Shown in pieces: positions 7,899-45,264 of a stretch of DNA of 61,859 nt; within the stretch, counting starts at the first letter, position 1, and the number at the start of each line of letters is the position of its first letter. The translations under genes and the position numbers were made by a program. Below the pieces are notes generated by a model. The model worked only from the letters and a program-made list of their open reading frames with translations. It was not told the origin of the DNA and ran no database searches. Source of the DNA: a virus (Duplodnaviria; Caudoviricetes); IMG/VR virus record IMGVR_UViG_3300037424_001336, positions 1 through 61,859 of that record, one strand, 5' to 3'.

Positions 7899-8030
7899 AG
7901 AAGGGGCCGGGGCGCTACCCCCGGCCAAGTCAACAGGGAGGTCACGTCTGGGAGACGCTAGGCCGTTCTGCCCGGAGGCACCCACGGCTCGGGGATCTGA
8001 AAAATCGGCGGAGCGGACGGCCTTGCGCAT

Positions 8031-27045: not shown

Positions 27046-28186
27046 TCAGATCGGCGTGATCCTGCCGGACCTCGTCGAATAGGTGGCCGTAGGTCGCCAT
27101 CGTGAAGGCCGCATCCTCGTGGCCGATCCATTCCGCGATCTGGTGCCAGTCGATGTGGCTCTTCTGTTGCAGCTGGACCGCGCCCCATAGCGAGACCGCG
27201 AAGTGCCGGAACTCGTGGGGACGGTACTTCGGCCTCGGAACCTCGACCTTGGCCTTGCCGTCCTTGCGCCGGCGCGTCACCGTGCGGACGCCCTCGACGA
27301 TCCCGAGCTTCACCTGGAGCGGGTTGAGCCACCGCTTCTGGATATTCGATAGGAAGAGCACGGAGCCCTCGCCATTGGTGAACAGCGGCTTCCCCCTCTC
27401 CCTGCCCTTCGTGAACTCCTTCATGGCGTGCTGGACCAGGGGAGGCATCGGGACGCGGCGCCGGCCAGCGTCGGTTTTGAGGTAGTCGGAGACGGTGGCG
27501 AACTTGTCGGCCGCCCGGCGCACCTTGATGAACCCATCCGTCCCGACGTCCTCGGGGTAGAGCGCCCGGATTTCCCCCCAGCGCAGCCCGCAGAACATCG
27601 ATATGAGCAGCATGGGCCTCAGCGTGCCGGCGGCGCTGTCCGCCATCAGGCGGGCCTCCTGGCGCTCCGGGATGCGCTTCTTGCGGATGACCTGGGTGCG
27701 CCGTCTCGGCGCCCGTCTCCGCTTCGGGACCGGGTTGAGCGTGGCGGCCCCGGTACGAATCGCCTCGTCGAAGATGGCCGACAGGGTATTGCGGACCCGA
27801 CGTTTCATGTCGCGGCTGCATTCCAGGTCGACGTCGAGGAAGTGTTGCACCTTGGGGGATGTCAGTCGGCTGACCAGGACGGTGCCGAGATAGGGCCGGA
27901 TGTATTTCTCGATCCGGCCCTTGTCGCCCTCGATCGTCGCGGGGGCGAACTCTTCCGCCTCGCGGGCGGTGATGAAGTTGTCACAGGCCTTGCCGATGGT
28001 GATCGACACCGAATCGGCGACGTGAGTTCCCTTGCCCGATTCCTCGACCGCCTTGCGCTCGGCGGCCTCGGCCAGTTTCTTGGTGGGGAACGTGGGCTGG
28101 TGGCGCTTGCCGTGCTGGTCGCGGTAGTCGGCAACCCAGCCGCGCTCACCCTTCGCATTCCGGTATGTGGACCGCCGCACCGCCAT
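27011..28186 (-). CDS. int: Tyrosine integrase
   Basis: Arm domain; GLRWGE (R), LKT (K), HEFRH, IGH and TYGH (Y). Possible leaderless promoter TTGACC-17-CACCAT just upstream. Confidence 0.95.
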   Translation of the reverse strand: MAVRRSTYRNAKGERGWVADYRDQHGKRHQPTFPTKKLAEAAERKAVEESGKGTHVADSVSITIGKACDNFITAREAEEFAPATIEGDKGRIEKYIRPYLGTVLVSRLTSPKVQHFLDVDLECSRDMKRRVRNTLSAIFDEAIRTGAATLNPVPKRRRAPRRRTQVIRKKRIPERQEARLMADSAAGTLRPMLLISMFCGLRWGEIRALYPEDVGTDGFIKVRRAADKFATVSDYLKTDAGRRRVPMPPLVQHAMKEFTKGRERGKPLFTNGEGSVLFLSNIQKRWLNPLQVKLGIVEGVRTVTRRRKDGKAKVEVPRPKYRPHEFRHFAVSLWGAVQLQQKSHIDWHQIAEWIGHEDAAFTMATYGHLFDEVRQDHADLIKAAQVWVVGI

Positions 28187-33000: not shown

Positions 33001-36000
33001 GATGCTGAACCGGACCTTGCCCATGGCCTTGACGACGGAGCGGATTTCCCGCTGGCCCTTGCGGCGCAGCGCGGTGGCGTCGATGTCCTTGCCAAGAAGA
33101 TCCTCGGCCTCGGCCTTGTAGTCGGCCTCGGTCATGGGTTCGACCGTGTCGTTGGCGGCGGTCTCTTCCGCCTCCCGTCGCCCGACCTCTCCGCTATCGA
33201 TGGCCCCGAAGATGTCGTCAACGGTTTTGTAGCCGCGTCCGGTCAGCGCCTCGCGCAGGGCCTGGAAGAACTTCTTGATCACATTGAACAGGCGCAGCAG
33301 CCGGCCGCCGACCTGGCTCCGCCCGGACGTCCAGTCCGCGAACATGTCGGCGATGGCTTCCTCGACCAGTTGCTCCTCGGGTAGGCTGTACGCGGCGTAG
33401 CGGTCGCGGATGTCGGACATGCGCTCCACATCGGCTCGCGCCGCTCGCTCCAGGACGGACCATTCCGCCTCGGCAAACAGGCCAAGGTCCCGCAGAGCGT
33501 GGATGATCTCATGGTCCAGGGTCCAGGCCTTTTCCGGGGCCTCGAGCGACACCTCGATCAGTTTCATGTGGCCGCGGTAGACGCCGTCGATCGCCGCCTT
33601 GGAACCGTCGCCGGCAACCGCGTCGATGCCTTCCGACAGCCGCAGCGCGACGCGGTCCGAGATCCCGATCTGCCCCAGGCGCTTCGTCAAGTCGGCGCCG
33701 ATCGCCTCGACGTCCTGGGCGAACTCGGGCCGCAGGCTGTAGAACACCCGGCCCTGCGACTTGATCACGTCGTCGCGATAGAGTATCTTGGCTTTCACCG
33801 ATGCGGTCGACTGGCGCCGCCCGCCACCGACCACTTCTTCGGCAGAGCGCCGAGGGCTGCGGATCCCCGATGGGGCAGCCACTCCTTCACCGGACGCGGG
33901 ACGGAATTGTACCTGGGCGGACCGCGAGAGACCGGAAACCCTCGACGCCGCCTTCCTGTCACGGATGTAGACCTTGCCCGGTTCCGCCATGGCGTGGGCC
34001 ACGAAGCCGAGCATTCTGGCCGTTCCGGGCTCGTCCATGTCATGCGTCGGCGTGATGGTGCGGATCTCGCCATTCCTCAACCCGACGATGATGGGCTCGC
34101 CCTTCTTCGTGGTGGCGTCGATGACGACGCTCACCGTCCCGTCCCGGCGGGAGTGGACATAGAGCGGGTCGGCGACCATCTCTGGCAGCCGCTTCCACAC
34201 CTCGGTCGGGATGTCGCGGTGCTTGTTGGCGATGTCGGTCGCGATCTCCGGGCTGAGGGAGACGTCGCGGTTCGGCAGGCCCATCGCCTCAAGGACGTAG
34301 AACCGCCAACCCAGTTTCTGTTTCGTGACGGGCTGGCCGGCCAGCAGCCGGTCGGCGAAGCGGCCCCACTTCTCCGCGTCGGCCTCGAACAGGTCGGTGC
34401 GACCGTCGGGGCCGGTGGAGACGGATTCGCGGCGGAGTGAGTAGAACTTGCTGGTCGAAGCCGGCTTGCCGAGATGGGCGCGCAGTCTCCGGATGGCCGA
34501 GAGGCCCCCGGTGATGGTGAACTTGGTTTCCTTGCCGCGCGCCGTACGCAGGGTAAATTCGACGGGAACCGGGCGCTTGATCTCCGTTCCCTTCAGCGAC
34601 CCCTTCATGGCGTTGCTGCCATCGGTTCGGCCGCGATCGTAGATCTTCTTCTCGGTATCGGACAGGACGGCTGGCCCGAAATCGCCTTCGCCGGTCACTG
34701 CATCCATGTAACCCTGGGCGTATAGGAGCTTCTGGGGCTCGCGAGGCTCCGGCTTCCATCCGGCCAGCCCGTCATAGGTTTGCTTCCAAAGCCGGCCATA
34801 CTCGGTGTCGAGCATCGCAGCCTCGGCCTTGTCCAGATCAGCCGTCGTTTCGGCCTGGAGTTGCCCCGCCGCAGCCCTGGTCTCTTTGGGAATGTTCGGA
34901 GCAAGCCGCTTGGCGTCGGCGTCGTCGAGCATGCGCGCCAGGGCCTCGCTGCTCTGGGGGGCGCGGTTGGGCAGCGTGCCGGGAGGAACCTGCCGAGGCT
35001 TGGTTTCCGCCGGGGCCTGCGCTTCGGGTGTGGTTTCTGGCTTTGGCTTCGTAACCGGCTTCGCCTGGGCTTTTTTCGGCGCATCCTGGGGAGCAGGTCC
35101 GGCGGCCGCCCTGATCACCGCCTCGACATCGGCAGCGAACGCGGAATTGTGCAGATGCGAGGCGACGGCCGTCTCCGGCACGGGGTCGCCGCGCCGCATC
35201 GCGGCGAGGATCGCGGCCCGGTGTTCCTGCTCGGCCTTGGCGTAGTCGCGCTTCTTGATCCTGGTGGCCTCCGGGTCGACGCCCCGCGTCCTGTCCCCGG
35301 CCACCGCCCACTTCGGCCCCCACTTGGTGGCGGCGAATTGCGAGAACGACTGCTTCCAGGGTTCGGCGGATTCGTCGTTGGCCGGCTGCTGCACCTCTTG
35401 CACGACGGGGGTTTCCTGATCGGTCGCCCCCGGCGGCGCTGCTGGCGGCGGTGGCGCCGCCGGGGGCTCCCCGCGCGGCTCGACCGAGGGGGCGGCCTCG
35501 GGAGCTGCGGCAGGCTGGGGTTTCGTGTAGGCCAGCGGTTTAGTGGTGTCGCCGTTGGCCAGCCATTCCTTGAACTCGGCGGTGTTCATGGCGGTCACGG
35601 CGCCGCGCCGGACCGCGCCGGCGCCGTCGTTGAAGTGGACGTCATAGAGGAAATGGGCGTCGCCCAGGTTGCTGGCGCCCAGGATGGCCTTGTGCTCGTC
35701 GAAGTTCCCGGTGGCCGGGTCGATCTGGTCGACGACGAAGACCTGGTCTGAATTGTCGTCGATGCCGAGATAGACGTCGATCCCGTCGCCGTCCTTGCCC
35801 TCGGAGCGTTTCAGGTAGCCGTAGTGGGCCATCATCTTGACCGACCACGGCTTCCCGTCGGCGCCGGTCCCGCTGCGCGTCGACCCCCGGGGGTTCTCGA
35901 TGGCGATGTCGAGGCCCTTCCAGGTGACGTGAGCCTTGCGATAATTTCCAACCTCTTTCATTGCCGGTGTCGGTTCGGTGTCGACGCGCTGGGCCGCGAC

Positions 36001-38262
36001 ATCGACGTCGGCGATGGTCTCGGCACGGACCGGGCTTTCCGGGGTGCCGGCGCCCACCAGCGTCACCGTGGAGTCGTCGAGATAGGTTTCGATGGCGTCG
36101 CCCTTCTCGGGAACCACCCTGACGCCGGCGGCGCCCTCGACCTCGAAGACGTCCTCGAGACGGCCGGTGACGGGGTCTCCCCCTTCGGTGGCCACCGTGA
36201 CCGTGCTGCCCATGGCGGGCAGGCCGTTGGCCTCGATGATCGCTTGACGGCGAGCCTGGACCTCGTCGGTGGCGGCTTGGCGCTGTGCTTCCGCCGCATC
36301 CTTGACCCCTTGCTCGTCCTCGGCCTTGATTTCCGAGACCGGCCGGGGGTCAGCCATCAGTTCGGCGAGGCTACGCTGTGGCGTCTGCTCCGGTTGCGGG
36401 GCTGTCGGCGTAGGCTCGGCCGCCCCCTGCTCCTGTGGAGCCGCCGGCTGGTCCTGGCGGGGCCTTACGGCGGCGCCGGACACGGAGCCGAATAGGAGAC
36501 CGACGACGGCCCCCACTCCCATCGAGGCGACGAGTTCGTCGCTGAACTGCCGGCTGGTGTCGTAGGCCTTGGCAATCATGTTCTGGGTGAACTGCTGCAA
36601 GCCCTCCTGGCCGCCCTCGATGGCCGCCTGTTCCAGGGCCTTGCGAATGATGGAATAGGCCAGCCCGACCGATTGGCCACCAAGGGGCCGCAACAGGTTC
36701 TCGATCGGCGCTATGTCGGTGGCGCCGGGCAGCATGCCCATGACGGCGGCCCGCGCCGCGACCTCGTCGGGAACGCCCTTCTCCATGGCCGCGTCCAGGG
36801 CCTCGCCAGCGCCCATCGAAAGCGCGGTGACGGGAAGCATGACCTGGCCGATGCCGGGGATAAGGCGAGCGGCCACGAAGGTGCCGGTCGACCCGATGCC
36901 GCGGGCAACCTGTACGATGAACTCTTTTTCATGATGGGGGGGGATGGGGAAGGTTTCGGCCGCGAAGTCTTCGACGGCCTGACCCGCCTTGACCAGCGGG
37001 TTTTCCTTGAGGGGGACATCGAGGCCAAAAGCCTTCGGAGTCTCAGCGAGGAAACGGCGGGTTTCCTGGATCGCGAATTCCGGGTTGGAATAGAAATCCT
37101 GCTTCATGAGGGAGCGGCCGACCCGGGCGTTTTGCTGGACCAGCCGCTGCGCTTCGTCCTGGTTGCCGGCCCGCATCGCAGCCTCGATCTGGTCGAGCGC
37201 GGCAAGATCCTCGTGGTAGGAACTGGGATAGGTGATTCCCCCAAGGCCCGTTAAGACGGTGGCGACGCCCTTGATGGCCGCTTCGGGAACCCCCCGGGCG
37301 GTCGAGGCGGCAAGGCTCGGCCCCAACTCTTCCTCGATCGCTTGCGCAATCATGTCGTCGGTCATGCCGGCGGGAAACTCGACGGGGCCGATTCCCTCGA
37401 CCTCGACGATCTGGGCCGGCAGTTCGTGGGCCTGCGGGCGCGGCGCGGCCTCGCGGGTGGCGCTGTAGGGTGATTCCCCGCCCTGGAGCCAGGCGTCCGC
37501 TTCCTGCGGCGTCTTGAGGCCGAGGGCGTCCGGGTTCTCCCCGGTCTCCCGCATGAAGGTTTCGCGCCACGCTGGGTCTGGGGCCTGGGGCGCGGCGGGT
37601 GTCGGTTCCGGCCGCGCGAAGGCCTGCCAGGGCTTCCGGCCCGGACGCTCGAAGGTGGGCACCGGCTCGGGGCCGGGCATGGCGGCGGCAAGCGGCTGCT
37701 GATAGTCGGGAACCTCGCCGGGGTCCATGTTGCCGCGCACCCTGGGGTCCCGCGCCTCGCGAGCCTGGACGTCGGCAAGCGTCGGCATGTCCCGTTTCGG
37801 CGCATCATTTGATGCAGAAAATTGGGACATGTTAATTTTTGGCCCCTCTCGGGAGGCGGGAAAATTCAACACGGGCGGCGCCGCCTCCGGGATGAACGAC
37901 GCCGGTTGCAGCTTCGGGCGGGTAGGCTCGAAGGTCTGGGCCGGCCGGCGGGGGGCCGGCTCATAGGTGGGCGCAGGATCTGCGGGGGCTGGGGCCTGGG
38001 GGGCAGGCTCAGGTTCCGGGCGGTTCAGCGGCATCAGTTGCGCCGGCCGGGCCTCGCCCAAGGCAACCCGGAAATTCTCCATGCCACCGTACTTCTTGAG
38101 CGTCTTGTCCAACGCCTCGCGGTAAAGCTGCCCTTCTCGGGAGGCGGAGCGGTGGCCGAGGTGCGTGACGCCGTTTTCGGTGCGCGTCGGCGGAATCCTG
38201 GAACGCAGCTTGTCCAGCTGCTCCAGGTCGAACCGCGCGATCGTGCGTGCCGTCTCGTCCAT
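30055..38262 (-). CDS. 2735-aa polyvalent internal virion/ejection protein (inorganic pyrophosphatase-like, PBECR-like nuclease, zincin metallopeptidase)
   Basis: GNYRKAH...IENPRGSTRSG...HYGY...DGDGIDVY...FDEHK (about 35540-35990); PBECR-like region (about 33950-34330); DHEIIHAL (about 33500). Confidence 0.85.
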   Translation of the reverse strand: MDETARTIARFDLEQLDKLRSRIPPTRTENGVTHLGHRSASREGQLYREALDKTLKKYGGMENFRVALGEARPAQLMPLNRPEPEPAPQAPAPADPAPTYEPAPRRPAQTFEPTRPKLQPASFIPEAAPPVLNFPASREGPKINMSQFSASNDAPKRDMPTLADVQAREARDPRVRGNMDPGEVPDYQQPLAAAMPGPEPVPTFERPGRKPWQAFARPEPTPAAPQAPDPAWRETFMRETGENPDALGLKTPQEADAWLQGGESPYSATREAAPRPQAHELPAQIVEVEGIGPVEFPAGMTDDMIAQAIEEELGPSLAASTARGVPEAAIKGVATVLTGLGGITYPSSYHEDLAALDQIEAAMRAGNQDEAQRLVQQNARVGRSLMKQDFYSNPEFAIQETRRFLAETPKAFGLDVPLKENPLVKAGQAVEDFAAETFPIPPHHEKEFIVQVARGIGSTGTFVAARLIPGIGQVMLPVTALSMGAGEALDAAMEKGVPDEVAARAAVMGMLPGATDIAPIENLLRPLGGQSVGLAYSIIRKALEQAAIEGGQEGLQQFTQNMIAKAYDTSRQFSDELVASMGVGAVVGLLFGSVSGAAVRPRQDQPAAPQEQGAAEPTPTAPQPEQTPQRSLAELMADPRPVSEIKAEDEQGVKDAAEAQRQAATDEVQARRQAIIEANGLPAMGSTVTVATEGGDPVTGRLEDVFEVEGAAGVRVVPEKGDAIETYLDDSTVTLVGAGTPESPVRAETIADVDVAAQRVDTEPTPAMKEVGNYRKAHVTWKGLDIAIENPRGSTRSGTGADGKPWSVKMMAHYGYLKRSEGKDGDGIDVYLGIDDNSDQVFVVDQIDPATGNFDEHKAILGASNLGDAHFLYDVHFNDGAGAVRRGAVTAMNTAEFKEWLANGDTTKPLAYTKPQPAAAPEAAPSVEPRGEPPAAPPPPAAPPGATDQETPVVQEVQQPANDESAEPWKQSFSQFAATKWGPKWAVAGDRTRGVDPEATRIKKRDYAKAEQEHRAAILAAMRRGDPVPETAVASHLHNSAFAADVEAVIRAAAGPAPQDAPKKAQAKPVTKPKPETTPEAQAPAETKPRQVPPGTLPNRAPQSSEALARMLDDADAKRLAPNIPKETRAAAGQLQAETTADLDKAEAAMLDTEYGRLWKQTYDGLAGWKPEPREPQKLLYAQGYMDAVTGEGDFGPAVLSDTEKKIYDRGRTDGSNAMKGSLKGTEIKRPVPVEFTLRTARGKETKFTITGGLSAIRRLRAHLGKPASTSKFYSLRRESVSTGPDGRTDLFEADAEKWGRFADRLLAGQPVTKQKLGWRFYVLEAMGLPNRDVSLSPEIATDIANKHRDIPTEVWKRLPEMVADPLYVHSRRDGTVSVVIDATTKKGEPIIVGLRNGEIRTITPTHDMDEPGTARMLGFVAHAMAEPGKVYIRDRKAASRVSGLSRSAQVQFRPASGEGVAAPSGIRSPRRSAEEVVGGGRRQSTASVKAKILYRDDVIKSQGRVFYSLRPEFAQDVEAIGADLTKRLGQIGISDRVALRLSEGIDAVAGDGSKAAIDGVYRGHMKLIEVSLEAPEKAWTLDHEIIHALRDLGLFAEAEWSVLERAARADVERMSDIRDRYAAYSLPEEQLVEEAIADMFADWTSGRSQVGGRLLRLFNVIKKFFQALREALTGRGYKTVDDIFGAIDSGEVGRREAEETAANDTVEPMTEADYKAEAEDLLGKDIDATALRRKGQREIRSVVKAMGKVRFSIDPDSLGQNGRLTIEERKDVGDLNLVKRYFYTPQAAFKRWPELAQLQRFGVQTEVYMSKFVKRLNTRYDAVRRELSSKQFDALSDLLFAGDAEQKEFTAADLSGQDEKVAEAYQEVRDIFETVGRFVDQHRRSMLPKLRARKFAAMKRMAHLRDMSDPEFRRLLNKRGALRSRLRSGEGNPETIATELDAVEAELKIKREATDEYAELTAEVDRIDAELAKTSIRRRKGYVPHKFFGTWAVYRVEGGEDGPVHTLVAGDHGFFPDRESAVKAAGAVLAADGSANLVVRPVQFQFPNSGATALTDASYWKFMSQVGTALQIQGEELRDLVNGVARKPFRRRIAGFTLFRQGVPGYSKDFDRVMRTHMGEAVRYVMLDKLKYEAISTMERLGISPHRSATASSDTLRAAVLSWFRDVNGQKQPLENQIDEILDKPWAKPVRMALLSGTAMAATTMFGISASPAVGVVAGSYVGYRVYRALHDGGSFKSRALTGAMLGDMAHLKLGSFFNVFSPVVNLSQTLINTVPVLGTYTMTGMKLLSQAVGSRATGKPDRYWRLLERADIVSAFKYTEQGTAQFSRESTLAHASLYLFSKAEQFNRAVSFLGAYQKAIDAGASEGDAFKRGEAMMVKTQFHYGNAQKPEILRGIFLRVPGQFKNFVMQEIAFIAGLKKPTGNALTGWATPEVGKFLVSMFLVAGVLGFPMLDLLDELINWLADFSPITEIKRLALKAQAEGKAWGSAANLIIRGLPGLIGEDMSARAGVGDKFLPLEFRDFKGPWVSTLESAVRLGELNATVADHLRNLSTGIGRPLKSLEAMANGLPIQDMALRPKVFFEALADGKVAYTNPWKGGALEYDERILSNMDLARMAVGGTPRHIAELRDVDAIQQHDEAKTKEKTQIYTNRIIDAYRRYGDAGSKDRLSDILGEVARESRRDGVVISHRQVSAALKKAFEPRVLRTVERTRKQLRPEIWGLAKEAIPNEKGG

Positions 38263-38300: not shown

Positions 38301-38329
38301 TTGCAAAACCGCAGTCGATGGATTATTCT
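38301..38329 (+). promoter_or_regulatory. Sigma70 promoter of the counter-oriented moron
   Basis: TTGCAA-17 nt-TATTCT. Confidence 0.6.
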
Positions 38330-38375
38330 GGTGGTGAAGATTGCCGGTGGGGCTCAATTTTCGGAGTGTTGGCGC

Positions 38376-38630
38376 ATGATCACGAAGCTTCTTGCAATCA
38401 CCGGACTTGTTCTCGCCACCAGTGGCGCGGTGGCCGCCGAGCAACCGGCTCCGGTCGACAACCCGCCGAACCCGGTATGGGGAGGGATCGGAGTCCACCC
38501 CGACGATTTCGGGGGGAACATGAAGGCTATCCCCTATGACCCGGCATGGGGCGGGATTGGTATGCACCCCGACGATTTCAAGGGAAACCAGAGCCCGATT
38601 CAGCCTGCGGCTCAGCCCTCGTCCAAATAG
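38376..38630 (+). CDS. Secreted mini-protein with two WGGIGxHPDDF repeats (moron)
   Basis: Signal peptide MITKLLAITGLVLATSGAVAA; opposite strand to the late operon; GGAG RBS. Confidence 0.85.
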   Translation: MITKLLAITGLVLATSGAVAAEQPAPVDNPPNPVWGGIGVHPDDFGGNMKAIPYDPAWGGIGMHPDDFKGNQSPIQPAAQPSSK

Positions 38631-38631
38631 C

Positions 38632-39669
38632 CTACTGAACGAACCCTTTCCCCGGCACATACCTGCGGGTCGGGGTGGACGGGGCTGGCGCGGCCCCGTT
38701 CGTTTGTGGGACCGAGATCAGTTCGTTGACCATGGTCTGTGCCTCGGCCCACTTTTCCTCGGCGGAACGCTGGTCCTGGAAGTCGGCGCTCATCGCGGTA
38801 AACAACCGCTGCACCACCTGGGCTCGGGCATAGGGGCTGCTCTTGGCCGTGGACATCATCTGCCACGCTTCCCGGGCATCCTTGGCGACGCCTTTGGTAA
38901 CCAGCCATTCGGCGGTCTGCACCGACGCCGGCTGCGTCGTCTTGTCGGTCTTCAACATTTCCTGGGGCTGCGGCAAACCCTGGTAGCCGAACTGGTTGGC
39001 CGGGGCCTGCTGGCCGGGCTTGAAGTGGCGGCCGACGATTTCCCGCATCGCGGTTTCCATGGCCTGCTTCAGGTCGCGCGGCCGGCCCTCGTAGAGCTTG
39101 GAATACTTGGTCCAGGTGTCGGCAAGATCGCGTTGCGCGTTGGCGTTCGAAAGGATGTTGTCGGGGATGGCTTCGCCGAACCGCTTCGCGTACTGCTGCG
39201 CCATGTCGGGCTGGCCGGCGGCGATATATTTCATGGTCTGGTCGAAGACCTGGACGTCCTGGGCGTCCTGGTCGAGCGACATCTGGGCGCCCTTGGCGGC
39301 GTGGCCAGGCGTCTGCATATAGGTCGAGGCGAGGCTTCGGCGCGTCACCGGCTGCGGGGATGGGGGCTGCTGGCTCGATGGGCCGACCGCCGGCTGTTGC
39401 GCCGGAGTGGCCTGCATCGGTTGGGCTGGCTGTTGCCCACCCGTGGGCTGCGCCGGTTGCGGCTGGCCGACGGCGCGCAGCGGCGAACCCTGGGACATGG
39501 ACCGGATGTTGCGGTCCAGCGCGGCGTCGTTGGTCATTTTGGCTTCGGCAGAGGCCCGCTCCAGGTCCTGCATGTCGCGGAGCGCTTCGCGGTCGGACTG
39601 CTGGGCGCGGCGCTGCAATCCGCTGTCACGGCCAACCTGATAAGGGTCGCGCTGCAAGTATTCGACCAT
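38632..39669 (-). CDS. Putative ejection (internal virion) protein
   Basis: Q/A-rich helical composition; lies between ejection genes. Confidence 0.75.
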   Translation of the reverse strand: MVEYLQRDPYQVGRDSGLQRRAQQSDREALRDMQDLERASAEAKMTNDAALDRNIRSMSQGSPLRAVGQPQPAQPTGGQQPAQPMQATPAQQPAVGPSSQQPPSPQPVTRRSLASTYMQTPGHAAKGAQMSLDQDAQDVQVFDQTMKYIAAGQPDMAQQYAKRFGEAIPDNILSNANAQRDLADTWTKYSKLYEGRPRDLKQAMETAMREIVGRHFKPGQQAPANQFGYQGLPQPQEMLKTDKTTQPASVQTAEWLVTKGVAKDAREAWQMMSTAKSSPYARAQVVQRLFTAMSADFQDQRSAEEKWAEAQTMVNELISVPQTNGAAPAPSTPTRRYVPGKGFVQ

Positions 39670-39678
39670 GGGTTCCTC

Positions 39679-40371
39679 CTAGACCGTCATCTCTCTGACC
39701 CGGTCGCCGTAGCGCGATTTCCGGGCTTCTTCCTTCTCGGAGTTGGTGAGGAACGCCGAGATGTCGCCCAGCGCCTGGCCGCGCGCGCCGACGTTGGCCA
39801 GTTCGGATTTGGCCTTGGTGTCGGCGGAACCCAGCGCGGCGGCGCCGGTAGCCCGCCCCGACGAGGTGTCCAGCATGGCCTGGTTGCCGGTGGCGTCGAA
39901 ATATTCCCCGGACAGCCGGGCCGCGGCATCGTCCTGCGAGGAACGGTTCTCGTCGATGAACTGGTTCTTGACGCCGGTCTCGACGCCCCGCATCACCGCG
40001 ACCTGGGCACGGCCGGCGCCGCGGAGCCCGCCGGAGTTGAGCGTTCTCCGGGTGGAACGGCTGGTGTCGTCCAAGCTGGCCTTCTGGGTATCGGTCAGCA
40101 GGTAAGGGTTGCCTGCAACCGTGACTTTCAGGCGCTGGACGGCCGGTTCGGACAGCGCCTTGCTTTCGTCGTAGCGGGCCTCGGCGTTGGCATTGCCCTC
40201 GCGGATCGCGGCGGCTTGGTCCTGGTAGCCCTGGGAGACCTTGTTGGCGGCGTTCTTATTGGCTTGCGTCGTCATCGCCGTGGTGGCAATGGGAACGACG
40301 ACGTCGGAGATCAGGCCTCCGGTGCCCAGGGCCTCGTCGATGAACCCGGCGAAACTGCTCCACAGTCCCAT
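39679..40371 (-). CDS. Putative ejection protein (P22 gp7-like position and composition)
   Basis: A/G/S-rich, with ANKNAANK..Q and GGLRGAG. Confidence 0.75.
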   Translation of the reverse strand: MGLWSSFAGFIDEALGTGGLISDVVVPIATTAMTTQANKNAANKVSQGYQDQAAAIREGNANAEARYDESKALSEPAVQRLKVTVAGNPYLLTDTQKASLDDTSRSTRRTLNSGGLRGAGRAQVAVMRGVETGVKNQFIDENRSSQDDAAARLSGEYFDATGNQAMLDTSSGRATGAAALGSADTKAKSELANVGARGQALGDISAFLTNSEKEEARKSRYGDRVREMTV

Positions 40372-40372
40372 G

Positions 40373-41458
40373 TCAGCCTCCCGCCATGCCCGTCCCGGCG
40401 GAGCGCAGGGGCGAACCCATGGCCTGCATCGGGTTGGGCCGGCTCTGCGGCATCGCCGCCGCCGATCCCTTGTTGATCATCTGGCGCACCAGCTGGACCT
40501 GCTCGGGTGTCGCGACGCCTTCGGCGATGGCCGACATGGCTTCCAGCATGTCATTGCCCCAGTATGCCGTCGCCTCCGGGTTCATGACGTGCTCGGTTTC
40601 GTGAGCGGTGATGCGGACCGGCTCGATCTCGGGCGAACCCTTGTTGGGGATCGGGCCGCCCATGCGGTAGGTCGAATCCCCCATGCCGCTGCCCGCCGAG
40701 GTGTCCTGGGAACCGGTGGAACCGCCGGGACCGGGGTCAGATTCGCTGGGGCCGCCACCGCTGTCGCCACCACCGTAATCGTCGGGGTGGGAACCGATGG
40801 CGCCTTCCGCCTGCGCGGTCTCCTCGCTCAGATCTCCTTCGGGCTGGGAAGGCGACGCTTCCGGGCCGCGGTTTGGGTCATATCCAGCCCCGCCTGGCGT
40901 CCCGGTACCCAAGCCGTAATCGTCTGGGTGGGAACCGATGGCGCCCATCGCCGTTGGATCCGATGGCTCATTGGAGCCCCCCGCAATTCCGGCGGCCCGC
41001 TCCAGGGCCCGCTTGTCCCGCGCGGCAATGGCCTTGTCGAAGTCTTCCTTGCCCACCTTGTTCGCCAGATTTACCATTGGGCCGATGCCGGGCAGCGCCA
41101 TGTTGGCGGCGAGCCCGATACCTTTCTTTCCGTACCCTTCGACGGTCTCTTCCGGCATGCCGACGCCGAACACATCCCTGGCAAACGACCTGTTCTTCTC
41201 CTCCTGGCTCAGCTCCTCATCGGTCATGTCGGTGTACGACTTGCTGCCGGGCCCCACATTTTCCGGGCTCGGGCCGTCGCTCTCGGTGGAAAGCCCCAAA
41301 CCGACGCCGCGCAGCGGGGACTCGATCGCAGCCGGCTGCGGTTCCTCCTCGACGTTGCCGGTGGCGTCCAGGGTCTGGGACATGAACCCGGGGAAGCGCG
41401 AGGTCTTGAACCGCGTCGAGGTGAAGCTCTTGCGAGGGTCGAGGGTGTTGGTGGCCAT
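40373..41458 (-). CDS. Putative ejection protein with two GAIGSHPDDYG repeats
   Basis: G/S/P/D-rich; C-terminal YRMGG...AHETEHVMNPEAT..WG..ML..M resembles motifs of tape-measure and ejection proteins. Confidence 0.75.
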   Translation of the reverse strand: MATNTLDPRKSFTSTRFKTSRFPGFMSQTLDATGNVEEEPQPAAIESPLRGVGLGLSTESDGPSPENVGPGSKSYTDMTDEELSQEEKNRSFARDVFGVGMPEETVEGYGKKGIGLAANMALPGIGPMVNLANKVGKEDFDKAIAARDKRALERAAGIAGGSNEPSDPTAMGAIGSHPDDYGLGTGTPGGAGYDPNRGPEASPSQPEGDLSEETAQAEGAIGSHPDDYGGGDSGGGPSESDPGPGGSTGSQDTSAGSGMGDSTYRMGGPIPNKGSPEIEPVRITAHETEHVMNPEATAYWGNDMLEAMSAIAEGVATPEQVQLVRQMINKGSAAAMPQSRPNPMQAMGSPLRSAGTGMAGG

Positions 41459-41467
41459 GGCGGTCTC

Positions 41468-41986
41468 CTAGCGTCTGAGCTGGTAGTTGAAGGTCACGGA
41501 ATTTCCGAGGCCGGGAGCCACCGCGACGGTGACGGTGAAGCCGGCGGCGGTTTGTGCGATGGCCGTGACGCGGAACGCCCCCACGTCCGGAGTGCCGGTG
41601 ATCGATACCGGCGACAGGACGAGATTGTAGACGGCGTCCGCCTGCGCCGCGGCGAACGTCGCCACCCCCGTCGTCGCGGCAGCGGCCACCGTGACGGTGC
41701 CGAAGATCCAGGAATCCAGCCTCGCCTTGTTCTCGTTGGCTTGACCGAAGGCGTAGGCCGCCAGGACGAACGCCTCGTTGGCTGTCGACTGTGCTATGGC
41801 GATGGTGCTGGTCGCCGGGTCTGGAAGGCTGTTTGGGTCGAACCCGGAATCGTCGAAGGCCTCGGAGCGGCGCAGGAATTCATCGTTTAGTTCAAACGAC
41901 TTGAAGACCTCGAAGGCCCAATTCACCATGGCGGTGGAGTCTTCCTTGGCGTCTCCGGACTGGCGCGGGGGGCGGGGAATGGGCAT
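41468..41986 (-). CDS. Virion structural protein
   Basis: Position after the tail hub gene; beta-rich C-terminus. Confidence 0.7.
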   Translation of the reverse strand: MPIPRPPRQSGDAKEDSTAMVNWAFEVFKSFELNDEFLRRSEAFDDSGFDPNSLPDPATSTIAIAQSTANEAFVLAAYAFGQANENKARLDSWIFGTVTVAAAATTGVATFAAAQADAVYNLVLSPVSITGTPDVGAFRVTAIAQTAAGFTVTVAVAPGLGNSVTFNYQLRR

Positions 41987-43402
41987 CTACCACTCCAGCC
42001 GCTCGACCATCGCATCGAGGCGAACCACCTCGACGGGGCAGTCGTCGGTAACAACCCACTCGAACTGCCAGGTATCGGCGCAGCCGAAGCCGTCGAAGTC
42101 GACGAAGAATTCCCGTTCGCCGGCCAGGCCGAATGACCGGGAGACCCAAGGTGTCGGATCGCCGCCGTCGCGGATCGCCCGGATCCTGATTTCCCCGGCC
42201 GCCGTGTTGGTGCCGGTGCCGCGGCGCAGCCTGGCCCTGAGATTGGTCACCTCCGACGGCCCCCAATCGCCGAGGTGGGCGGTGCGGCCCAGCATCCTCT
42301 GGACCTCACCGGCCCAGGTGTAGGCGTCCCGGGTCACCTTGTAGATGACGCCCTCTCCACCGATGAAGGTGTCGTTCCACAGCGACCAGTGCGACCAGCC
42401 CGGCCACCGGGACGGTATCGAGGTGGAGGCGTCCCAGGCGTAGAGGCTGTACCAGCGCTTCCGCCGATAGTCATAGAGGAGCGTCACGCCCTTGGAGCCG
42501 TAGGGGTTGGTGGCGTGGGGTGCCTGCATCAGGATGAAGTTCTGGCCGGCAAGTCCAAGCGGCTTGTCGGGATGGCCGCCGACCCAGAAGTCGGTCCAGT
42601 CGTCGATGCCTTCGAGGATCTGGGCGATGTCGTCGCTCTGGACCCGGCTGCTCTGCCCGGAAACCCGGCTGAATTCCTTGACCGGGTTGACATACCACAA
42701 GGCGTTGTCGGCGAAGATCTGGCCGTAGGGCGCGAAGTTGCCGTCGCCCACCGACCAGCGCCGATAGAACGGCGTCTCGCCACTGGTCAGCCGCTCGAAC
42801 TGCTCGATGCTGTCCGGCCCAGTCAGCATCAATTCGCGGAACCGGGTCACCAGGAGGCCGTTCAGCGGGTCCGGCTGGGTGTCGGCGGAAAACACGTCGA
42901 GCGGGCTCCAGGTGCGGTACTCCCCGGCCTCGCAATGCAGAAACCGCCCGGAATGCCGCTCGATCGCCACGGCGTAGTTGTCGATGAACCCGATGTGCGT
43001 GGTGTCGGGCGCGTCCTCGGACAGGATTTCTGTCTTCTCCCCGGCGAAGCGGATGGGTTTCCGGCCGGCCGCCAGCAACAGTTCGTCGGTGGTCTTGCCG
43101 AAGATGACGCGCAGCCCCCCGGAAATCGGCACCCCGGTCACGTTGGCGACGGCACCATTCCGGTCGACCTTGAAGAGGTTCCCGGAACTGGTCGCCGCCA
43201 TCAGGTTGCCGCGCCAGTCGTGGAGATAGACCCGGCCATTGTCCCCCGGAAGGGTGCAGAACACGGCGTGCCCGGGGAACCGGCTGTGCCCGCCGGCCTC
43301 GTTCTGGAAGCCGTTCTCGATCGCGGCCTGGGCTTTGGTCAGCGCGGTCTCGTGGACGTTGGCAAACCACTTGGCCTCGATCGGGATGCGCTCCGTCCTC
43401 AT
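41987..43402 (-). CDS. Tail hub / DNA stabilisation protein (P22 gp10-like)
   Basis: Beta-propeller-like sequence, SADTQPDPL and TLLYD..RKRW; podovirus gene order. Confidence 0.75.
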   Translation of the reverse strand: MRTERIPIEAKWFANVHETALTKAQAAIENGFQNEAGGHSRFPGHAVFCTLPGDNGRVYLHDWRGNLMAATSSGNLFKVDRNGAVANVTGVPISGGLRVIFGKTTDELLLAAGRKPIRFAGEKTEILSEDAPDTTHIGFIDNYAVAIERHSGRFLHCEAGEYRTWSPLDVFSADTQPDPLNGLLVTRFRELMLTGPDSIEQFERLTSGETPFYRRWSVGDGNFAPYGQIFADNALWYVNPVKEFSRVSGQSSRVQSDDIAQILEGIDDWTDFWVGGHPDKPLGLAGQNFILMQAPHATNPYGSKGVTLLYDYRRKRWYSLYAWDASTSIPSRWPGWSHWSLWNDTFIGGEGVIYKVTRDAYTWAGEVQRMLGRTAHLGDWGPSEVTNLRARLRRGTGTNTAAGEIRIRAIRDGGDPTPWVSRSFGLAGEREFFVDFDGFGCADTWQFEWVVTDDCPVEVVRLDAMVERLEW

Positions 43403-45264
43403 CAGGAAAGCCTCGCCTCGCCGTGGACTTCCCAATTGATCGTGGTCGAGGCGGCGCCGGTCACCCTCAACTCGATCTCGGGACCGTTGGCGGCAAACGC
43501 GCAATCCCAGCCGGCCGTGGTCTCGTGGTCGGTGCCGATGGTGTCGGCCTGGAGAATGGAGCAGGCCCCGGCCACCAGGGCACCGTTGGCCGTCGCCGAG
43601 CCGCCGGCGGCATCGGTGATGATCTCGTTGTCCTCGAACTCGCCCTCGATGTCGCGCAGCGTCAGGGTGCCGGTCGCCCCGGAGTCGGAATCGGCGATGA
43701 TCAGCGCCGTGGCTCCCGAGGTGCCCCCGGTCAGGGTGGAACCCAAAGTGAAGTTCGCGGTCTGGGTGTCATAGGCCAGGGTGGAACCGGCCCGCTTCAC
43801 CTTGGCACCCCTCCAGTAGCAGGCGACGGAAACGCCGTTGCGCATGTTGCCGATGACGATGGCCTCGACGTAGCCGACCTGTCCGGGGTCGAGGCGGATC
43901 GCCCAGGCCTTGGTCACGTCGGCCGTCGTCGTCAAGCCCGAGGTGGCGTTCTTGAGGATGGTCCGCCCCCGCGTCCACTTCGTGCCTTCTCCGGCAACCG
44001 TGACGTCGGCATCCTCGATGCAGTCCATGGCCAAGACGTTGTTTAATGGCAGCGTCAGCGTGATGGCGATGCCGCTGATCTCCATGCCCCACAAGACGAC
44101 GTCCTGGCAGGTGCCGGCGAAGGTCATGGAGCTGGTCGTGGCGTCGCCCTTGACCAGGGAACCGGAGATTTCGAGGCCGATCACGGTGTTGATGGCCTCG
44201 TTGTCGGTGTCGTCGTCATCGTCCACCGCGAGGTTGACGGTGTTGCCTGACCAGTGGCCGTGGATCTTGGTGTGCCTGGCGCCATTGACGTTCATGGCGG
44301 TGCCGGTGCAATCGGCGAAAGACAGGTCGAAGCGGTTGTGCCACGCCTTCATGTCCTCGAACCCGAGGTCGACGCCCGCCACCGAGCACAGGCTGACCGC
44401 GCCGGCCCAGGCGTTGCCCCGCCACTCGTCGCCGTCGGCCCCGTTGCCGGCGTCGCTGTCTCCATGCAGCTTGGCCCCGGTATCGCAGTCCTCGACGGAG
44501 AGGCCGACCCACGCCGACCGGCGCCCCCCCTTGAAATGCAGCCCGGTCTCGAAGCGCTTGACCAGGACATCCTCGAACACGGTCTCGTCGTTGGCCTTGG
44601 AGAAGACGCCGACGGACCCTGTTTGCAGGTCGACGCCGTCGAGCGTGAGGCTTCTCAGTCCGGCCCGGTCGCCGCCAATGGTAATGCACTCCGCCGCAGT
44701 CTGGCATTGCAGGATTGTGACGTCACGGCCGGCCCCGGCCAGGACGACGCCCTCGGCCAGGGTGAGATCGGTAAAGGGCCATGTTCCGGCCGGGATCATC
44801 ACCCTGCCGCCGCTGGCTGCGGCACCGCAAGCCGCGACCAGGGTTGCGGTATTGGTTGCCGCGTCGTCGTCGGCCAGCGCCCCATAGTCCAGGGCCTGGA
44901 TGAAATCATCGGCGCGATCGGCGAGGCTCCGGGCCGCGGTACCATCGGTGCCAGTGACCAGGGCGCCGGACGCATCGGCCCCGACCAGGGTATAGATCGG
45001 CGGTCTCACGATGCCGGTCTGGTCGGTGGTGTTGATTTCAAGATCGACCGGCTCCCCGGCGTAAAGAGGGATTGCCCACTTGCCATAGGTGACGCCGTTG
45101 CTGGTCAGGCTCAGTAGGGTCTGCGGGTTGGCCGCCGCAACTGTCAGCGCCTCGTCGGTGTAGACCGACGCCAGCGTCGATAGCCCGGCCTTGCGGATGC
45201 GCACAACGGCATAGGCATAGTGGGGTTGCCAAGTGTCGAAGAAGCCGATTCGGAATGCGGACAT
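43402..45264 (-). CDS. Tail spike with a pectate-lyase-like beta-helix
   Basis: ALDYGA.ADD...NTA...GGRVMIPAGTW...L..GVVLAGAG...TIL. Confidence 0.8.
   Translation of the reverse strand: MSAFRIGFFDTWQPHYAYAVVRIRKAGLSTLASVYTDEALTVAAANPQTLLSLTSNGVTYGKWAIPLYAGEPVDLEINTTDQTGIVRPPIYTLVGADASGALVTGTDGTAARSLADRADDFIQALDYGALADDDAATNTATLVAACGAAASGGRVMIPAGTWPFTDLTLAEGVVLAGAGRDVTILQCQTAAECITIGGDRAGLRSLTLDGVDLQTGSVGVFSKANDETVFEDVLVKRFETGLHFKGGRRSAWVGLSVEDCDTGAKLHGDSDAGNGADGDEWRGNAWAGAVSLCSVAGVDLGFEDMKAWHNRFDLSFADCTGTAMNVNGARHTKIHGHWSGNTVNLAVDDDDDTDNEAINTVIGLEISGSLVKGDATTSSMTFAGTCQDVVLWGMEISGIAITLTLPLNNVLAMDCIEDADVTVAGEGTKWTRGRTILKNATSGLTTTADVTKAWAIRLDPGQVGYVEAIVIGNMRNGVSVACYWRGAKVKRAGSTLAYDTQTANFTLGSTLTGGTSGATALIIADSDSGATGTLTLRDIEGEFEDNEIITDAAGGSATANGALVAGACSILQADTIGTDHETTAGWDCAFAANGPEIELRVTGAASTTINWEVHGEARLS

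What the first reader, a model, noticed from the sequence alone, without database searches (positions are those of the whole stretch)
38301..41458. Secreted decoy peptide that copies a repeated motif of the phage's own ejection protein: candidate mimicry-based superinfection exclusion
Seen: an 84-aa gene (38376-38630) lies antisense inside the ejection-protein operon, with its own sigma70-like promoter and a signal peptide. Its mature part is mostly two repeats, NPVWGGIGVHPDDFGG and DPAWGGIGMHPDDFKG. The putative ejection protein at 40373-41458 carries the same motif twice, DPTAMGAIGSHPDDYGLG and EGAIGSHPDDYGGG (about 40773-40804 and 40914-40945). The DNA also matches (atcggagtccaccccgacgatttcgg vs atcggttcccaccccgacgattacgg). 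Known: P22 sieA is a counter-oriented lysogen-expressed gene next to the ejection genes that blocks DNA entry. Inference: the lysogen exports a periplasmic mimic of the GxIGxHPDD(F/Y) motif, which occupies the host or phage partner needed for DNA translocation. I know of no described exclusion system that works this way.
Basis: partly seen in the sequence, partly recalled or inferred. Interest (0 to 1): 0.88.

Follow-up and report, generated by a model that had tools for sequence, protein, structure and literature searches.

The report
Exported peptide copying ejection-protein motif
A temperate phage from sediment carries, backwards among its likely DNA-ejection genes, a small exported peptide that repeats a rare ten-residue motif also found twice in a neighbouring virion-block protein, so it may block incoming related phages by mimicry, but this is untested.

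Summary
GxIGxHPDD[FY] occurs four times in the window: twice in the 84-aa counter-oriented ORF (38376-38630) and twice in the 361-aa protein (40373-41458). None occurred in 100 shuffles. All four copies share rare codons, so they are copies by descent.

The motif is almost private. Apart from chance singletons, only one other phage has it, known from proteins P0002 and P0004. That phage has the motif in both proteins. Two homologs of the 361-aa protein lack the motif. The one genome that could be checked also lacks the peptide.

The peptide has an N-terminal hydrophobic, signal-like segment and is otherwise disordered. The large protein carries its motifs in a disordered Gly-rich linker. Its position matches P22 sieA, next to the ejection genes. 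The phage has an integrase.

Not shown: expression, export, virion residence of the 361-aa protein, the partner, or any exclusion. One homolog sits in a satellite-like island without virion genes.

Decoy-type exclusion is the best single reading, at about 0.33. The scan has flagged the same theme on other DNA. I found no paper describing it.

The parts
38301..38329 (+). Weak candidate promoter: TTGCAA (38301-38306), 17-nt spacer, TATTCT (38324-38329)
   Evidence: Read by eye; 8 of 12 consensus matches. The scan, with a threshold of 9 of 12, reported no site, so this is unproven.
38363..38366 (+). GGAG ribosome-binding site, 9 nt before ATG 38376
   Evidence: Sequence.
38376..38630 (+). 84-aa counter-oriented small gene (moron-like). 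It encodes an N-terminal signal-like segment followed by a disordered Pro/Gly-rich peptide with two motif copies.
   Evidence: Best codon score of the six frames, 0.08 against -0.19 to -1.09. GC3 0.72 against 0.82-0.87 in neighbouring genes. Homolog P0002. AF2 mean pLDDT 48.
38376..38438 (+). Signal-peptide-like N-terminus: K4, a 16-residue hydrophobic core, and AVA/A or VAA/E cleavage sites
   Evidence: KD19 maximum 1.70 at residue 1. P0002 has an equivalent segment with 1.83. The cleavage site was read by eye and not predicted by a tool.
38481..38510 (+). Motif copy 1 of the peptide (GGIGVHPDDF), preceded by PPNPVW
38550..38579 (+). Motif copy 2 of the peptide (GGIGMHPDDF), preceded by PYDPAW
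40373..41458 (-). 361-aa protein of the virion gene block (putative ejection protein). The N- and C-terminal parts are conserved and the Gly/Ser/Pro/Asp-rich centre is disordered.
   Evidence: AF2 mean pLDDT 42, with no secondary structure in residues 160-293. No Pfam, PHROG, NCBIfam, PADLOC or PDB-sequence match.
40916..40945 (-). Motif copy 1 of the 361-aa protein (GAIGSHPDDY, residues 172-181), preceded by PSDPTAM
40775..40804 (-). Motif copy 2 of the 361-aa protein (GAIGSHPDDY, residues 219-228)
40514..40624 (-). Conserved C-terminal module (residues 279-315, including the invariant H286-E-x-E-H290) with a weak likeness to the C-terminal module of tape-measure proteins
   Evidence: The best local alignment of residues 263-315 over the whole of lambda gpH falls at gpH 745-781 (score 38); 11 of 2000 shuffles reach that score against the module. 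The weak tblastn hits (E 0.9-9) of 24 of 42 records lie in mycobacteriophage tape-measure genes. BLASTP, hhalign and Pfam see nothing.
39679..40371 (-). 230-aa gene of the same block, no known family
38632..39669 (-). 345-aa gene of the same block, no known family. Its stop codon lies 1 nt from the stop of the small gene, and the two genes converge.
41468..41986 (-). 172-aa gene between the gp10-like gene and the 361-aa gene
41987..43504 (-). P22 gp10-like head-closure (Hc3) protein; it anchors the synteny with P22
   Evidence: phrog_578, E 2.3e-17. tblastn finds 18 phage records at 21-24% identity, annotated Hc3 or packaged-DNA stabilization protein.
30055..38262 (-). 2735-aa giant polyvalent protein directly downstream on the - strand
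   Evidence: PF18823 InPase, E 4e-46. PF18819 MuF_C scores 19.4 bits, below its cut-off of 27.6.
27011..28186 (-). Tyrosine integrase, which marks a temperate life style
   Evidence: phrog_1, E 1.1e-51.

Best explanation
The 84-aa ORF is a real, lineage-restricted, moron-like gene. Its product is exported across the inner membrane by an N-terminal signal or anchor segment. This leaves a disordered peptide of about 63 residues in the periplasm with two copies of a short linear motif, [WF]-G-[GS]-I-G-x-H-P-D-D-F. The same motif, copied by descent, sits twice in the disordered Gly-rich linker of the 361-aa protein, which by gene order is one of the proteins released with the DNA. Each gene has kept its own motif version since the two known phages split. 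The motif is therefore a functional docking peptide, and both proteins most likely dock to the same envelope partner, either a host periplasmic or membrane protein or another ejection protein. The most economical role for the exported copy is competition. It would be made from the prophage, or early in infection, because late leftward transcription runs antisense through it. It would occupy the partner so that incoming virions of the same kind cannot complete DNA entry. That is superinfection exclusion at the position where P22 keeps sieA. Shown: the sequence facts, the motif's rarity, descent by shared codons, co-occurrence, predicted disorder, synteny and the integrase. Inferred: export, expression in lysogens, ejection of the 361-aa protein, a common partner, and exclusion.
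For: There are 4 motif copies in the window and 0 in 100 shuffles. All four copies use GAC-GAT for Asp-Asp, where GAT is 20% of 587 Asp codons. For the Gly of I-G they use GGT (3 copies) or GGA (1 copy), codons of 8-9% each. This points to common descent rather than convergence. Outside this phage the exact pattern gave 2 stretches in viral contigs and 56 in metagenome contigs. All are single copies in unrelated or broken frames. The peptide family has only one other member, P0002: 2 proteins among 7 candidates in 5.8 billion clusters and no true further hit in 1.84 billion representatives. P0002 has the same plan, with a hydrophobic N-terminus and two motif copies, although overall identity is 39-53% and the spacer is 21 residues longer. 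P0004, the 361-aa homolog, has the same contig statistics as P0002 (3 contigs, longest 24,565). It keeps both motif copies, with 20 of 20 motif residues identical against 41 of 69 other linker residues (Fisher p 0.0002). Peptide motifs resemble each other across the two phages more than they resemble the large protein's version, so there has been no recent gene conversion. The motif-less homologs P0005 and P0006 exist. The genome holding P0006 has no peptide homolog and no IGxHPDD pattern. Both motif settings are predicted disordered. The gene order is gp10-like, 172 aa, 361 aa, 230 aa, 345 aa, then the counter-oriented small gene. This parallels P22 genes 10, 26, 14, 7, 20, 16 followed by counter-oriented sieA. 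SieA blocks DNA injection, and its escape mutations map to ejection proteins (PMC10883804, abstract and sections 20-21). An integrase is present. The small gene's GC3 is lower than its neighbours', as is typical of morons.
Against: There is no evidence of transcription. No promoter or terminator passed the scan and no RNA run holds the phage. Export rests on a hydropathy value and my reading of the cleavage site. P0002 lacks a positive n-region, and its AxA site is followed by Pro. The 361-aa protein has no detectable homology to P22 gp7, gp20 or gp16; no window-block protein matched any P22 protein compared (including SieA) better than E 0.08, and no family match. Its homolog P0006 sits between an integrase and primosomal/DnaB genes in a roughly 17-kb island. 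That genome gave no match to this phage's portal or gp10-like protein. The family is therefore not tied to a virion block. Only two motif-bearing lineages exist, so co-occurrence is 2 plus 1 cases and co-variation cannot be tested. In the peptide pair, motif conservation (16 of 20) is not significantly above the other aligned mature columns (18 of 31, p 0.14). The partner is unknown.
Confidence: 0.33

Rival explanations
1. The partner is the same but the purpose is not exclusion. The motif neutralises or recruits a periplasmic host factor, such as a protease, a wall hydrolase or a Tol-Pal-type protein, to the resident phage's benefit. The ejected protein would bring the motif at entry. The exported peptide would supply it later, either as lysogenic conversion or as help at lysis or release.
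For: The evidence is the same as for a shared docking motif. Nothing in the data speaks specifically for competition rather than a parallel action. Both proteins carry two copies each, as would suit avidity for an oligomeric target.
Against: The counter-orientation inside a late operon and the sieA-like position fit a prophage-expressed exclusion gene better than a late helper. No host factor is identified.
Confidence: 0.22
2. The 361-aa protein is not an ejected virion protein, and its motif acts in the cytoplasm or at the inner face of the membrane. The small protein would then be a membrane-anchored paralogous fragment with a role unrelated to DNA entry, for example tethering the same phage or host factor to the membrane.
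For: Homolog P0006 lies in a non-virion context next to an integrase, an HTH_17-like gene and replication genes. That genome gave no match to this phage's portal or gp10-like protein. No family or fold evidence marks it as a virion protein. P0002's N-terminus looks more like an anchor than a cleaved signal.
Against: In this phage the gene sits in a tight run of - strand genes between the gp10-like gene and the giant polyvalent protein, with gaps of 1-9 nt. The C-terminal module is weakly tape-measure-like.
Confidence: 0.15
3. The ORF is an evolutionary by-product. A piece of the linker-coding DNA was duplicated into the gap between two late genes. The resulting ORF is not expressed or has no function.
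For: The shared rare codons show a duplication origin. Codon score is low (0.08 against 0.18-0.73 for the 17 other genes scored) and GC3 is lower. No promoter or terminator was found by the scan. The family is tiny.
Against: A second phage keeps an open frame with the same plan at only 39-53% identity. The differences include spacer indels that preserve the frame, both motif copies and the hydrophobic N-terminus. No gene on the opposite strand could explain this conservation, because the - strand frames there are broken or not coding-like. An RBS is present.
Confidence: 0.12
4. The repeated element works as DNA, for example as a protein-binding site, and the peptide likeness is a side effect.
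For: The core 12-mer CACCCNGACGAT occurs only at these four places in the window, two on each strand.
Against: All four copies are in frame in coding-like ORFs and give the same peptide. In the second phage the peptide is conserved in both proteins, although its DNA could not be seen. The flanking residues (P-x-[DN]-P ... G before the core, G after it) also agree at the protein level.
Confidence: 0.03

Closest known systems
Phage P22 SieA (superinfection exclusion A; Leavitt et al. 2024, PMC10883804)
   Same: Both are small genes on the opposite strand directly beside the ejection-protein genes of a temperate short-tailed phage with a gp10-like head-closure gene. SieA blocks DNA injection by relatives, and its escape mutations map to ejection proteins gp16 and gp20 (paper abstract). 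The paper's alternative model, that SieA occludes a host component needed by the conduit (section 21), is the same logic as a decoy.
   Different: There is no sequence likeness: the 84-aa ORF gave no hit at all to SieA at E up to 10 in BLASTP, and no PHROG match. SieA is a 164-aa integral inner-membrane protein. This product has one N-terminal hydrophobic segment and a disordered soluble part. SieA is not reported to copy a motif of the ejection proteins. Here the gene lies inside the block, before the giant protein, rather than after the last ejection gene.
Filamentous-phage pIII superinfection immunity
   Same: [quoted passage not shown] That the immunity works by occupying TolA is my recollection and comes from no call. 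It is the nearest precedent for exclusion by occupying the entry partner.
   Different: In that case the full entry protein itself does the job. Here it would be a separate dedicated gene carrying only a ten-residue motif, in a tailed phage, with an unknown partner.
Morons such as HK97 gp15 (Cumby et al. 2012, 'The moron comes of age', PMC3594210; search listing and start of abstract only)
   Same: An extra gene is set into a late structural operon, with base composition unlike its neighbours, in a temperate phage. From memory, HK97 gp15 is a moron that blocks DNA entry.
   Different: An own promoter and terminator, which define a moron, were not found by the scan. There is no homology.
Ltp-type exclusion lipoproteins (TP-J34; PMC3952083, listing and start of abstract only)
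   Same: A prophage-encoded, surface-exposed small protein excludes superinfection. From memory, its target is the tape-measure protein.
   Different: Ltp is a folded lipoprotein of Gram-positive hosts that binds the incoming protein. The peptide here has no Cys or lipobox and would mimic the incoming protein rather than bind it.
C-terminal module of tape-measure proteins (lambda gpH about 745-781)
   Same: Residues 279-315 of the 361-aa protein align best to this part of gpH, in the pattern EP..I..H..E.V...EAT...G. The weak tblastn hits fall mostly in mycobacteriophage tape-measure genes. Tape-measure proteins leave the virion with the DNA.
   Different: The likeness is below the significance of BLASTP, hhalign and Pfam. 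The rest of the protein is unrelated, and the phage is P22-like by its head-closure gene.

Membership tests
P22 SieA family | Sequence homology to SieA types A, B or C | tested here: not met
   BLASTP against P22 SieA gave no hit for the 84-aa protein at E up to 10. No PHROG, PADLOC, Pfam or NCBIfam match. Only P22's own SieA was compared.
P22 SieA family | Integral inner-membrane protein | tested here: not met
   There is only one hydrophobic stretch, at the N-terminus. The remaining roughly 63 residues are Pro/Gly/Asp-rich with net charge -3, and AF2 finds no structure.
P22 SieA family | Counter-oriented gene next to the ejection-protein genes | tested here: met
   (window) compared (P22 record).
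P22 SieA family | Expressed from the prophage and blocks DNA injection by relatives | not testable with these tools
   No RNA run holds the phage, and the host is uncultured.
Moron | Own promoter and terminator (an independent transcription unit) | tested here: inconclusive
   0 promoter-like and 0 terminator-like sites. By eye there is an 8-of-12 candidate at 38301-38329. The scan uses an E. coli-type consensus, and the host is probably an alphaproteobacterium.
Moron | Base composition unlike the flanking genes | tested here: met
   GC3 is 0.72 against 0.82-0.87 in neighbouring genes. The gap region has GC 0.60 against about 0.65-0.69 around it.
Moron | Absent from between the same two genes in related phages | not testable with these tools
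   No related phage DNA could be fetched.
Sec-type signal peptide | Positive n-region, hydrophobic h-region of 10-20 residues, small residues at -3 and -1 | tested here: inconclusive
   K4, an L5-A20 core, AVA/A, and KD19 of 1.70. These were read by eye, and no predictor was on hand. P0002 has the core but no positive n-region.
P22-type ejection proteins (gp7, gp20, gp16) | Sequence homology | tested here: not met
   Best E for the 361-aa protein is 0.087, against gp20, and 0.081 for the 230-aa protein against gp16. These are not significant.
P22-type ejection proteins (gp7, gp20, gp16) | Gene position downstream of gp10, gp26 and gp14 in the late operon | tested here: met
P22-type ejection proteins (gp7, gp20, gp16) | Present in virions and released on infection | not testable with these tools
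   This needs virion proteomics.
Tape-measure C-terminal module | Significant similarity to the module in lambda gpH or other tape-measure proteins | tested here: inconclusive
   Segment alignment scores 38 at gpH 745-781, reached by 11 of 2000 shuffles. tblastn E values are 0.9-9. BLASTP, hhalign and Pfam are negative.

The most novel reading that the evidence does not exclude
A dedicated, exported short-linear-motif decoy. The prophage secretes into the periplasm a disordered peptide holding only the docking motif of its own ejected protein. The peptide saturates the envelope partner, host or phage, that the ejected protein needs. Kin phages are thus shut out without any change to the receptor or the membrane. 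The satellite-like island that carries a motif-less copy of the same ejection-type protein would then hint at an arms race around this motif. With the other cases noted by the scan, this would be a general, undescribed class of superinfection exclusion by molecular mimicry.
Probability: 0.3. Interest if true: 0.8.

Novelty: new variant of a known kind. Interest (0 to 1): 0.55.

Why it matters
If the peptide is a decoy, it shows a cheap way to evolve exclusion: copy about ten codons of one's own entry protein behind a signal peptide. It would also mark, by sequence alone, the residues of an otherwise opaque, disordered ejection protein that contact its partner. How podovirus ejection proteins find their envelope partners would then become directly testable with a peptide bait. 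The full-text searches found no paper describing such a mechanism. A 2024 review of superinfection exclusion contains 'decoy' 0 times, 'secreted' 0 times and 'mimic' once, in an unrelated sense. If the peptide has another role, it is still a clean natural example of a short linear motif shared between an exported and a virion-block phage protein.

Tried and rejected
Relatives. No DNA or protein match was found for the region or the 361-aa protein in the 50,697 GenBank phage records. Viral contigs gave none with the 361-aa protein, its alignment or the 345-aa protein. Metagenome contigs gave none. Genome contigs gave one locus, the MAG copy. Only 1 of 401 genomes of that MAG's order holds the family, and it is the MAG itself. 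The synteny of the second motif-bearing phage therefore could not be seen.

Families. Pfam, PHROGs, NCBIfam, PADLOC and PDB sequences gave nothing for the peptide, the 361-aa protein or the 230-, 345- and 172-aa proteins. The only near-hit was a sub-threshold Rod-binding match (E 0.037, 15 bits against a cut-off of 25.1), which I reject. Atlas hits were all under 0.9 and unnamed, so they are leads only. P0007 from the profile search is a repetitive protein without the motif, which I reject as spurious.

Zincin idea. H286-E-T-E-H290 is invariant. However, it lies in a coil of low confidence, not a helix, and no peptidase family matched, so I did not adopt it.

Other roles. Spanin or lipoprotein roles are rejected: there is no Cys or lipobox and no coiled coil. 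An RTX or calcium-loop likeness and a J-domain HPD likeness were considered from memory and rejected, because there are only two separated copies in a disordered context.

Complex prediction. I folded the peptide (residues 23-84) with the 345-, 230- and 172-aa proteins. The verdict was 'no answer', which is evidence neither for nor against binding.

Sequencing runs. No RNA holder is listed. Laying contigs showed only the probable source run, plus short identical contigs in a second sediment study, with no variant information.

Earlier-note claim of a lambda gpH-like module. It was not reproduced by BLASTP or hhalign. A segment alignment and sub-significant tblastn hits gave only weak support.

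Supplementary files of papers were not consulted. They could hold P22 transcript data relevant to the sieA comparison.

Full report
WHAT THE WINDOW IS

The window is a whole IMG/VR virus record of 61,859 bp, rated 100% complete. It has 57-69% G+C in 2-kb windows.

It encodes a tyrosine integrase at 27011-28186 (phrog_1, E 1e-51), so the phage is temperate. It also encodes a GapR-domain protein (PF10073, E 5e-26). From memory, GapR is an alphaproteobacterial nucleoid protein. The only cellular relative of the gene studied here is in a Rhodospirillales MAG. A diderm alphaproteobacterial host is therefore likely but not shown.

The virion genes run leftward on the - strand:
- large terminase, 57748-59340
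- portal, 54373-56376
- major head protein, 51040-52149
- a P22 gp10-like head-closure (Hc3) protein, 41987-43504 (phrog_578, E 2e-17; 18 phage records at 21-24% identity)
- genes of 172, 361, 230 and 345 aa, with gaps of 9, 1 and 9 nt
- a 369-nt gap
- a 2735-aa polyvalent protein with an inorganic-pyrophosphatase domain (PF18823, E 4e-46) and a sub-threshold MuF_C match

THE OBSERVATION

The 369-nt gap holds the only + strand gene of the block. This is the ORF 38376-38630, 84 aa.
- GGAG lies 9 nt before its ATG.
- It is the best of the six frames by codon score, 0.08 against -0.19 to -1.09.
- That score is below the other 17 genes scored (0.18-0.73), and GC3 is 0.72 against 0.82-0.87 next door.
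- The N-terminus has K4, a 16-residue hydrophobic core and AVA/A (KD19 1.70). The cleavage site is my reading, because no predictor was available.
- The rest is Pro/Gly/Asp-rich, and AF2 finds it unstructured (pLDDT 48).

The ORF carries GGIGVHPDDF and GGIGMHPDDF. The 361-aa protein carries GAIGSHPDDY twice, at residues 172-181 and 219-228. Both copies lie in a Gly/Ser/Pro/Asp-rich stretch with no predicted structure (pLDDT 42, residues 160-293 without secondary structure).

A back-translated pattern for G-x-I-G-x-H-P-D-D-[FY] hits exactly these four places and none in 100 shuffles. BLASTP aligns the two proteins across both repeats (E 0.001 for the pair). It also shows an extended likeness before the core: P-x-[DN]-P-x-x-G.

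The scan found none. By eye there is an 8-of-12 site at 38301-38329.

COPIES BY DESCENT, KEPT BY SELECTION

All four copies encode Asp-Asp as GAC-GAT, although GAT is only 20% of 587 Asp codons. They encode the Gly of I-G with GGT or GGA, codons of 8-9% each. Independent convergence on the peptide would not be expected to pick the same rare codons. The motif DNA was therefore duplicated between the two genes.

The duplication is not recent, and the copies are not being homogenised. In the one related phage known, the peptide homolog P0002 (95 aa) has GGIGAHPDDT and GSIGAHPDDF behind a hydrophobic N-terminus. Its spacer is 21 residues longer and overall identity is 39-53%. The 361-aa homolog P0004 has GAIGSHPDDY twice. 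Each gene has thus kept its own flavour of the motif since the two phages split.
- In the large protein, the motif residues are 20 of 20 identical against 41 of 69 for the rest of the linker (p 0.0002).
- In the peptide, the contrast is 16 of 20 against 18 of 31 aligned columns, plus 33 gap columns (p 0.14, not significant).

No gene on the other strand could account for the conservation.

HOW RARE IS THE MOTIF

- The exact pattern occurs in 2 other stretches of 2.9 million viral contigs. One lies in a capsid-protease fusion and one in a 124-aa open frame of no known function.
- It occurs in 56 stretches of the metagenome collection. Each has a single copy, and by my reading none has the Gly-rich setting or the prefix. 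Many lie in frames broken nearby.
- A profile of the two peptides found nothing else real in 1.84 billion representatives. P0007 is a repeat protein without the motif.
- A search with only the linker (residues 160-235) found only P0003 and P0004 among 56 candidates.

The refutation condition 'the motif is common in unrelated proteins' is not met.

CO-OCCURRENCE

The 361-aa family has four members in 5.8 billion clusters.
- Two carry the motif: this phage and P0004.
- Two do not: P0005, from a 5.4-kb contig that I could not fetch, and P0006. At the first site they read AIAGDPTARG and AIEGDPTARG. At the second they have a divergent or deleted stretch.

P0002 and P0004 share identical contig statistics, with 3 contigs and the longest 24,565 bp.

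The 5.1-Mb genome holding P0006 has no peptide homolog. This holds with the single protein and with the alignment, whose best hit has E 0.49 in a frame with stops. It also has no IGxHPDD pattern on either strand.

The tally is therefore:
- motif and peptide together: 2 of 2
- neither: 1 of 1 testable
- unknown: 1

This is consistent with a linked pair, but the numbers are very small. Co-variation cannot be assessed.

IS THE 361-aa PROTEIN AN EJECTION PROTEIN?

For:
- The annotated P22 record has genes 10 (Hc3), 26, 14, 7, 20 and 16, followed by counter-oriented sieA with its own promoter. The window has the same layout after its gp10-like gene.
- The protein is largely disordered with conserved ends.
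I tested this. BLASTP, hhalign and Pfam see nothing.
- However, the best local alignment of residues 263-315 over all 853 residues of gpH falls at gpH 745-781, with 11 of 2000 shuffles reaching its score against that module.
- In a tblastn at E up to 10, 24 of 42 records hit lie in mycobacteriophage tape-measure genes. These are one phage cluster, at E 0.9-9.

This support is weak.

Against:
- There is no homology to P22 gp7, gp20 or gp16.
- P0006 lies in a roughly 17-kb island holding an integrase, an HTH_17-like gene, the 354-aa gene, a primosomal protein, a DnaB-type helicase and an SNase-domain gene.
- The island is bounded by ribosomal protein L21 and Obg.
- None of the other 19 window proteins tested, including the portal, major head, terminase, gp10-like and giant proteins, matched within 10 kb either side of the gene.
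- The whole genome gave no match to this phage's portal or gp10-like protein.

The family can therefore live outside a virion block, perhaps as a captured copy in a satellite. I put 'ejected virion protein' at about 0.55.

MECHANISM

The following are shown:
- a real-looking small gene with an export-type N-terminus
- a private, duplicated short motif kept in both proteins
- disorder around every copy
- sieA-like placement
- a temperate phage

The following are inferred: both proteins dock the same partner through the motif, and the exported copy competes with the incoming one.

Late leftward transcription must read antisense through the small gene. Its stop lies 1 nt from the convergent stop of the 345-aa gene. 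Its expression is therefore most plausibly confined to the prophage or to early times, and this too is inference.

P22 SieA is the closest known system. [quoted passage not shown] Its escape mutations lie in gp16 and gp20. The authors also consider occlusion of a host membrane component (PMC10883804, abstract and sections 20-21).

The nearest precedent for occupying the entry partner is pIII-mediated superinfection immunity of filamentous phages (passages in PMC13702708; the TolA-occupancy mechanism is recalled, not read).

The rival readings are these:
- the same partner but a helper or conversion role
- a non-virion role for the 361-aa protein
- a functionless duplicate
- a DNA-level element

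The last two are disfavoured by the second phage.

NOVELTY AND CONTEXT

Full-text searches found no paper that joins superinfection exclusion with mimicry of an ejection protein, a periplasmic decoy or a short linear motif, and none on an 'HPDD motif'. A 2024 review has no 'decoy' or 'secreted'.

The scan itself has noted the same theme before on other DNA. 17 findings in at least 17 genomes hold the search words. The eight that were listed describe small exported or membrane proteins beside the ejection or tape-measure genes (opposite-strand in the four notes that say so) that copy a motif of the phage's own ejection or tape-measure protein. One is reported to co-vary across dozens of phages. 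These are unchecked AI notes and are not independent evidence. They do mean that this case is one more instance rather than a singleton.

This case differs in two ways. The motif sits in the disordered middle of a mid-sized protein, whereas six of the eight listed notes place it at the start of the ejection protein. And only two lineages exist, so the case has little comparative power.

VERDICT

I rate it a new variant of a known kind, namely an exclusion gene beside ejection genes, with an untested mimicry mechanism. The probability of the decoy reading is about 0.3, and interest is 0.55.

Noticed in passing
L004:10001-11065 (Rhodospirillales MAG contig, G001:C10): A 55%-identical, motif-less copy of the 361-aa protein sits in a roughly 17-kb island. 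The island holds an integrase (7319-8554), an HTH_17-like gene, a primosomal protein, a DnaB-type helicase and an SNase-domain gene. It is bounded by ribosomal L21 and Obg, and no portal or gp10-like homolog was found in the genome. It looks like a satellite carrying one ejection-type gene.
   Followed up: partly
window 40592-40606 (-), residues 286-290 of the 361-aa protein: An H-E-x-E-H string, invariant in H286, E287, E289 and H290 across the four homologs, lies inside the conserved C-terminal module. It is zincin-like on paper but predicted as low-confidence coil, and no peptidase family matched.
   Followed up: partly
window 30055-38262 (-): A 2735-aa polyvalent protein with an inorganic-pyrophosphatase domain (residues 767-901) and a weak MuF_C match. 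Its C-terminal third looks rich in hydrophobic segments, which is my reading of the translation.
   Followed up: no
window 8384-9214 (-): A GapR-like DNA-binding domain (PF10073, E 5e-26) at the N-terminus of a 276-aa phage protein. It hints at an alphaproteobacterial host.
   Followed up: partly
window 4621-5601 (-): A transposase-like gene (phrog_506, E 3e-57) lies next to the DnaB-type helicase gene (2692-4590).
   Followed up: no
window 7822-7898 (-) and 60299-60370 (-): The phage carries tRNA-Pro(TGG) and tRNA-Met(CAT) genes.
   Followed up: no
window 38481-38746 and 40818-40968: Short contigs with no differences from the window are present in a second sediment metagenome from another study (run X2). 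The phage therefore occurs in more than one sample.
   Followed up: partly
window 45741-46487 (-) and 43402-45264 (-): A concanavalin-A-like lectin/glucanase domain protein (PF13385) and a 620-aa tail-protein-like gene lie upstream of the gp10-like gene. They are probably the receptor-binding apparatus, placed differently from P22's tailspike.
   Followed up: no
L002:755-2743: A 662-aa open frame with a Gly-Leu-Ile-Gly-His-His-Pro-Asp-Asp-Phe stretch. I read it as a protease-capsid fusion, without a family search. It shows that the bare pattern can arise by chance in an unrelated protein.
   Followed up: yes
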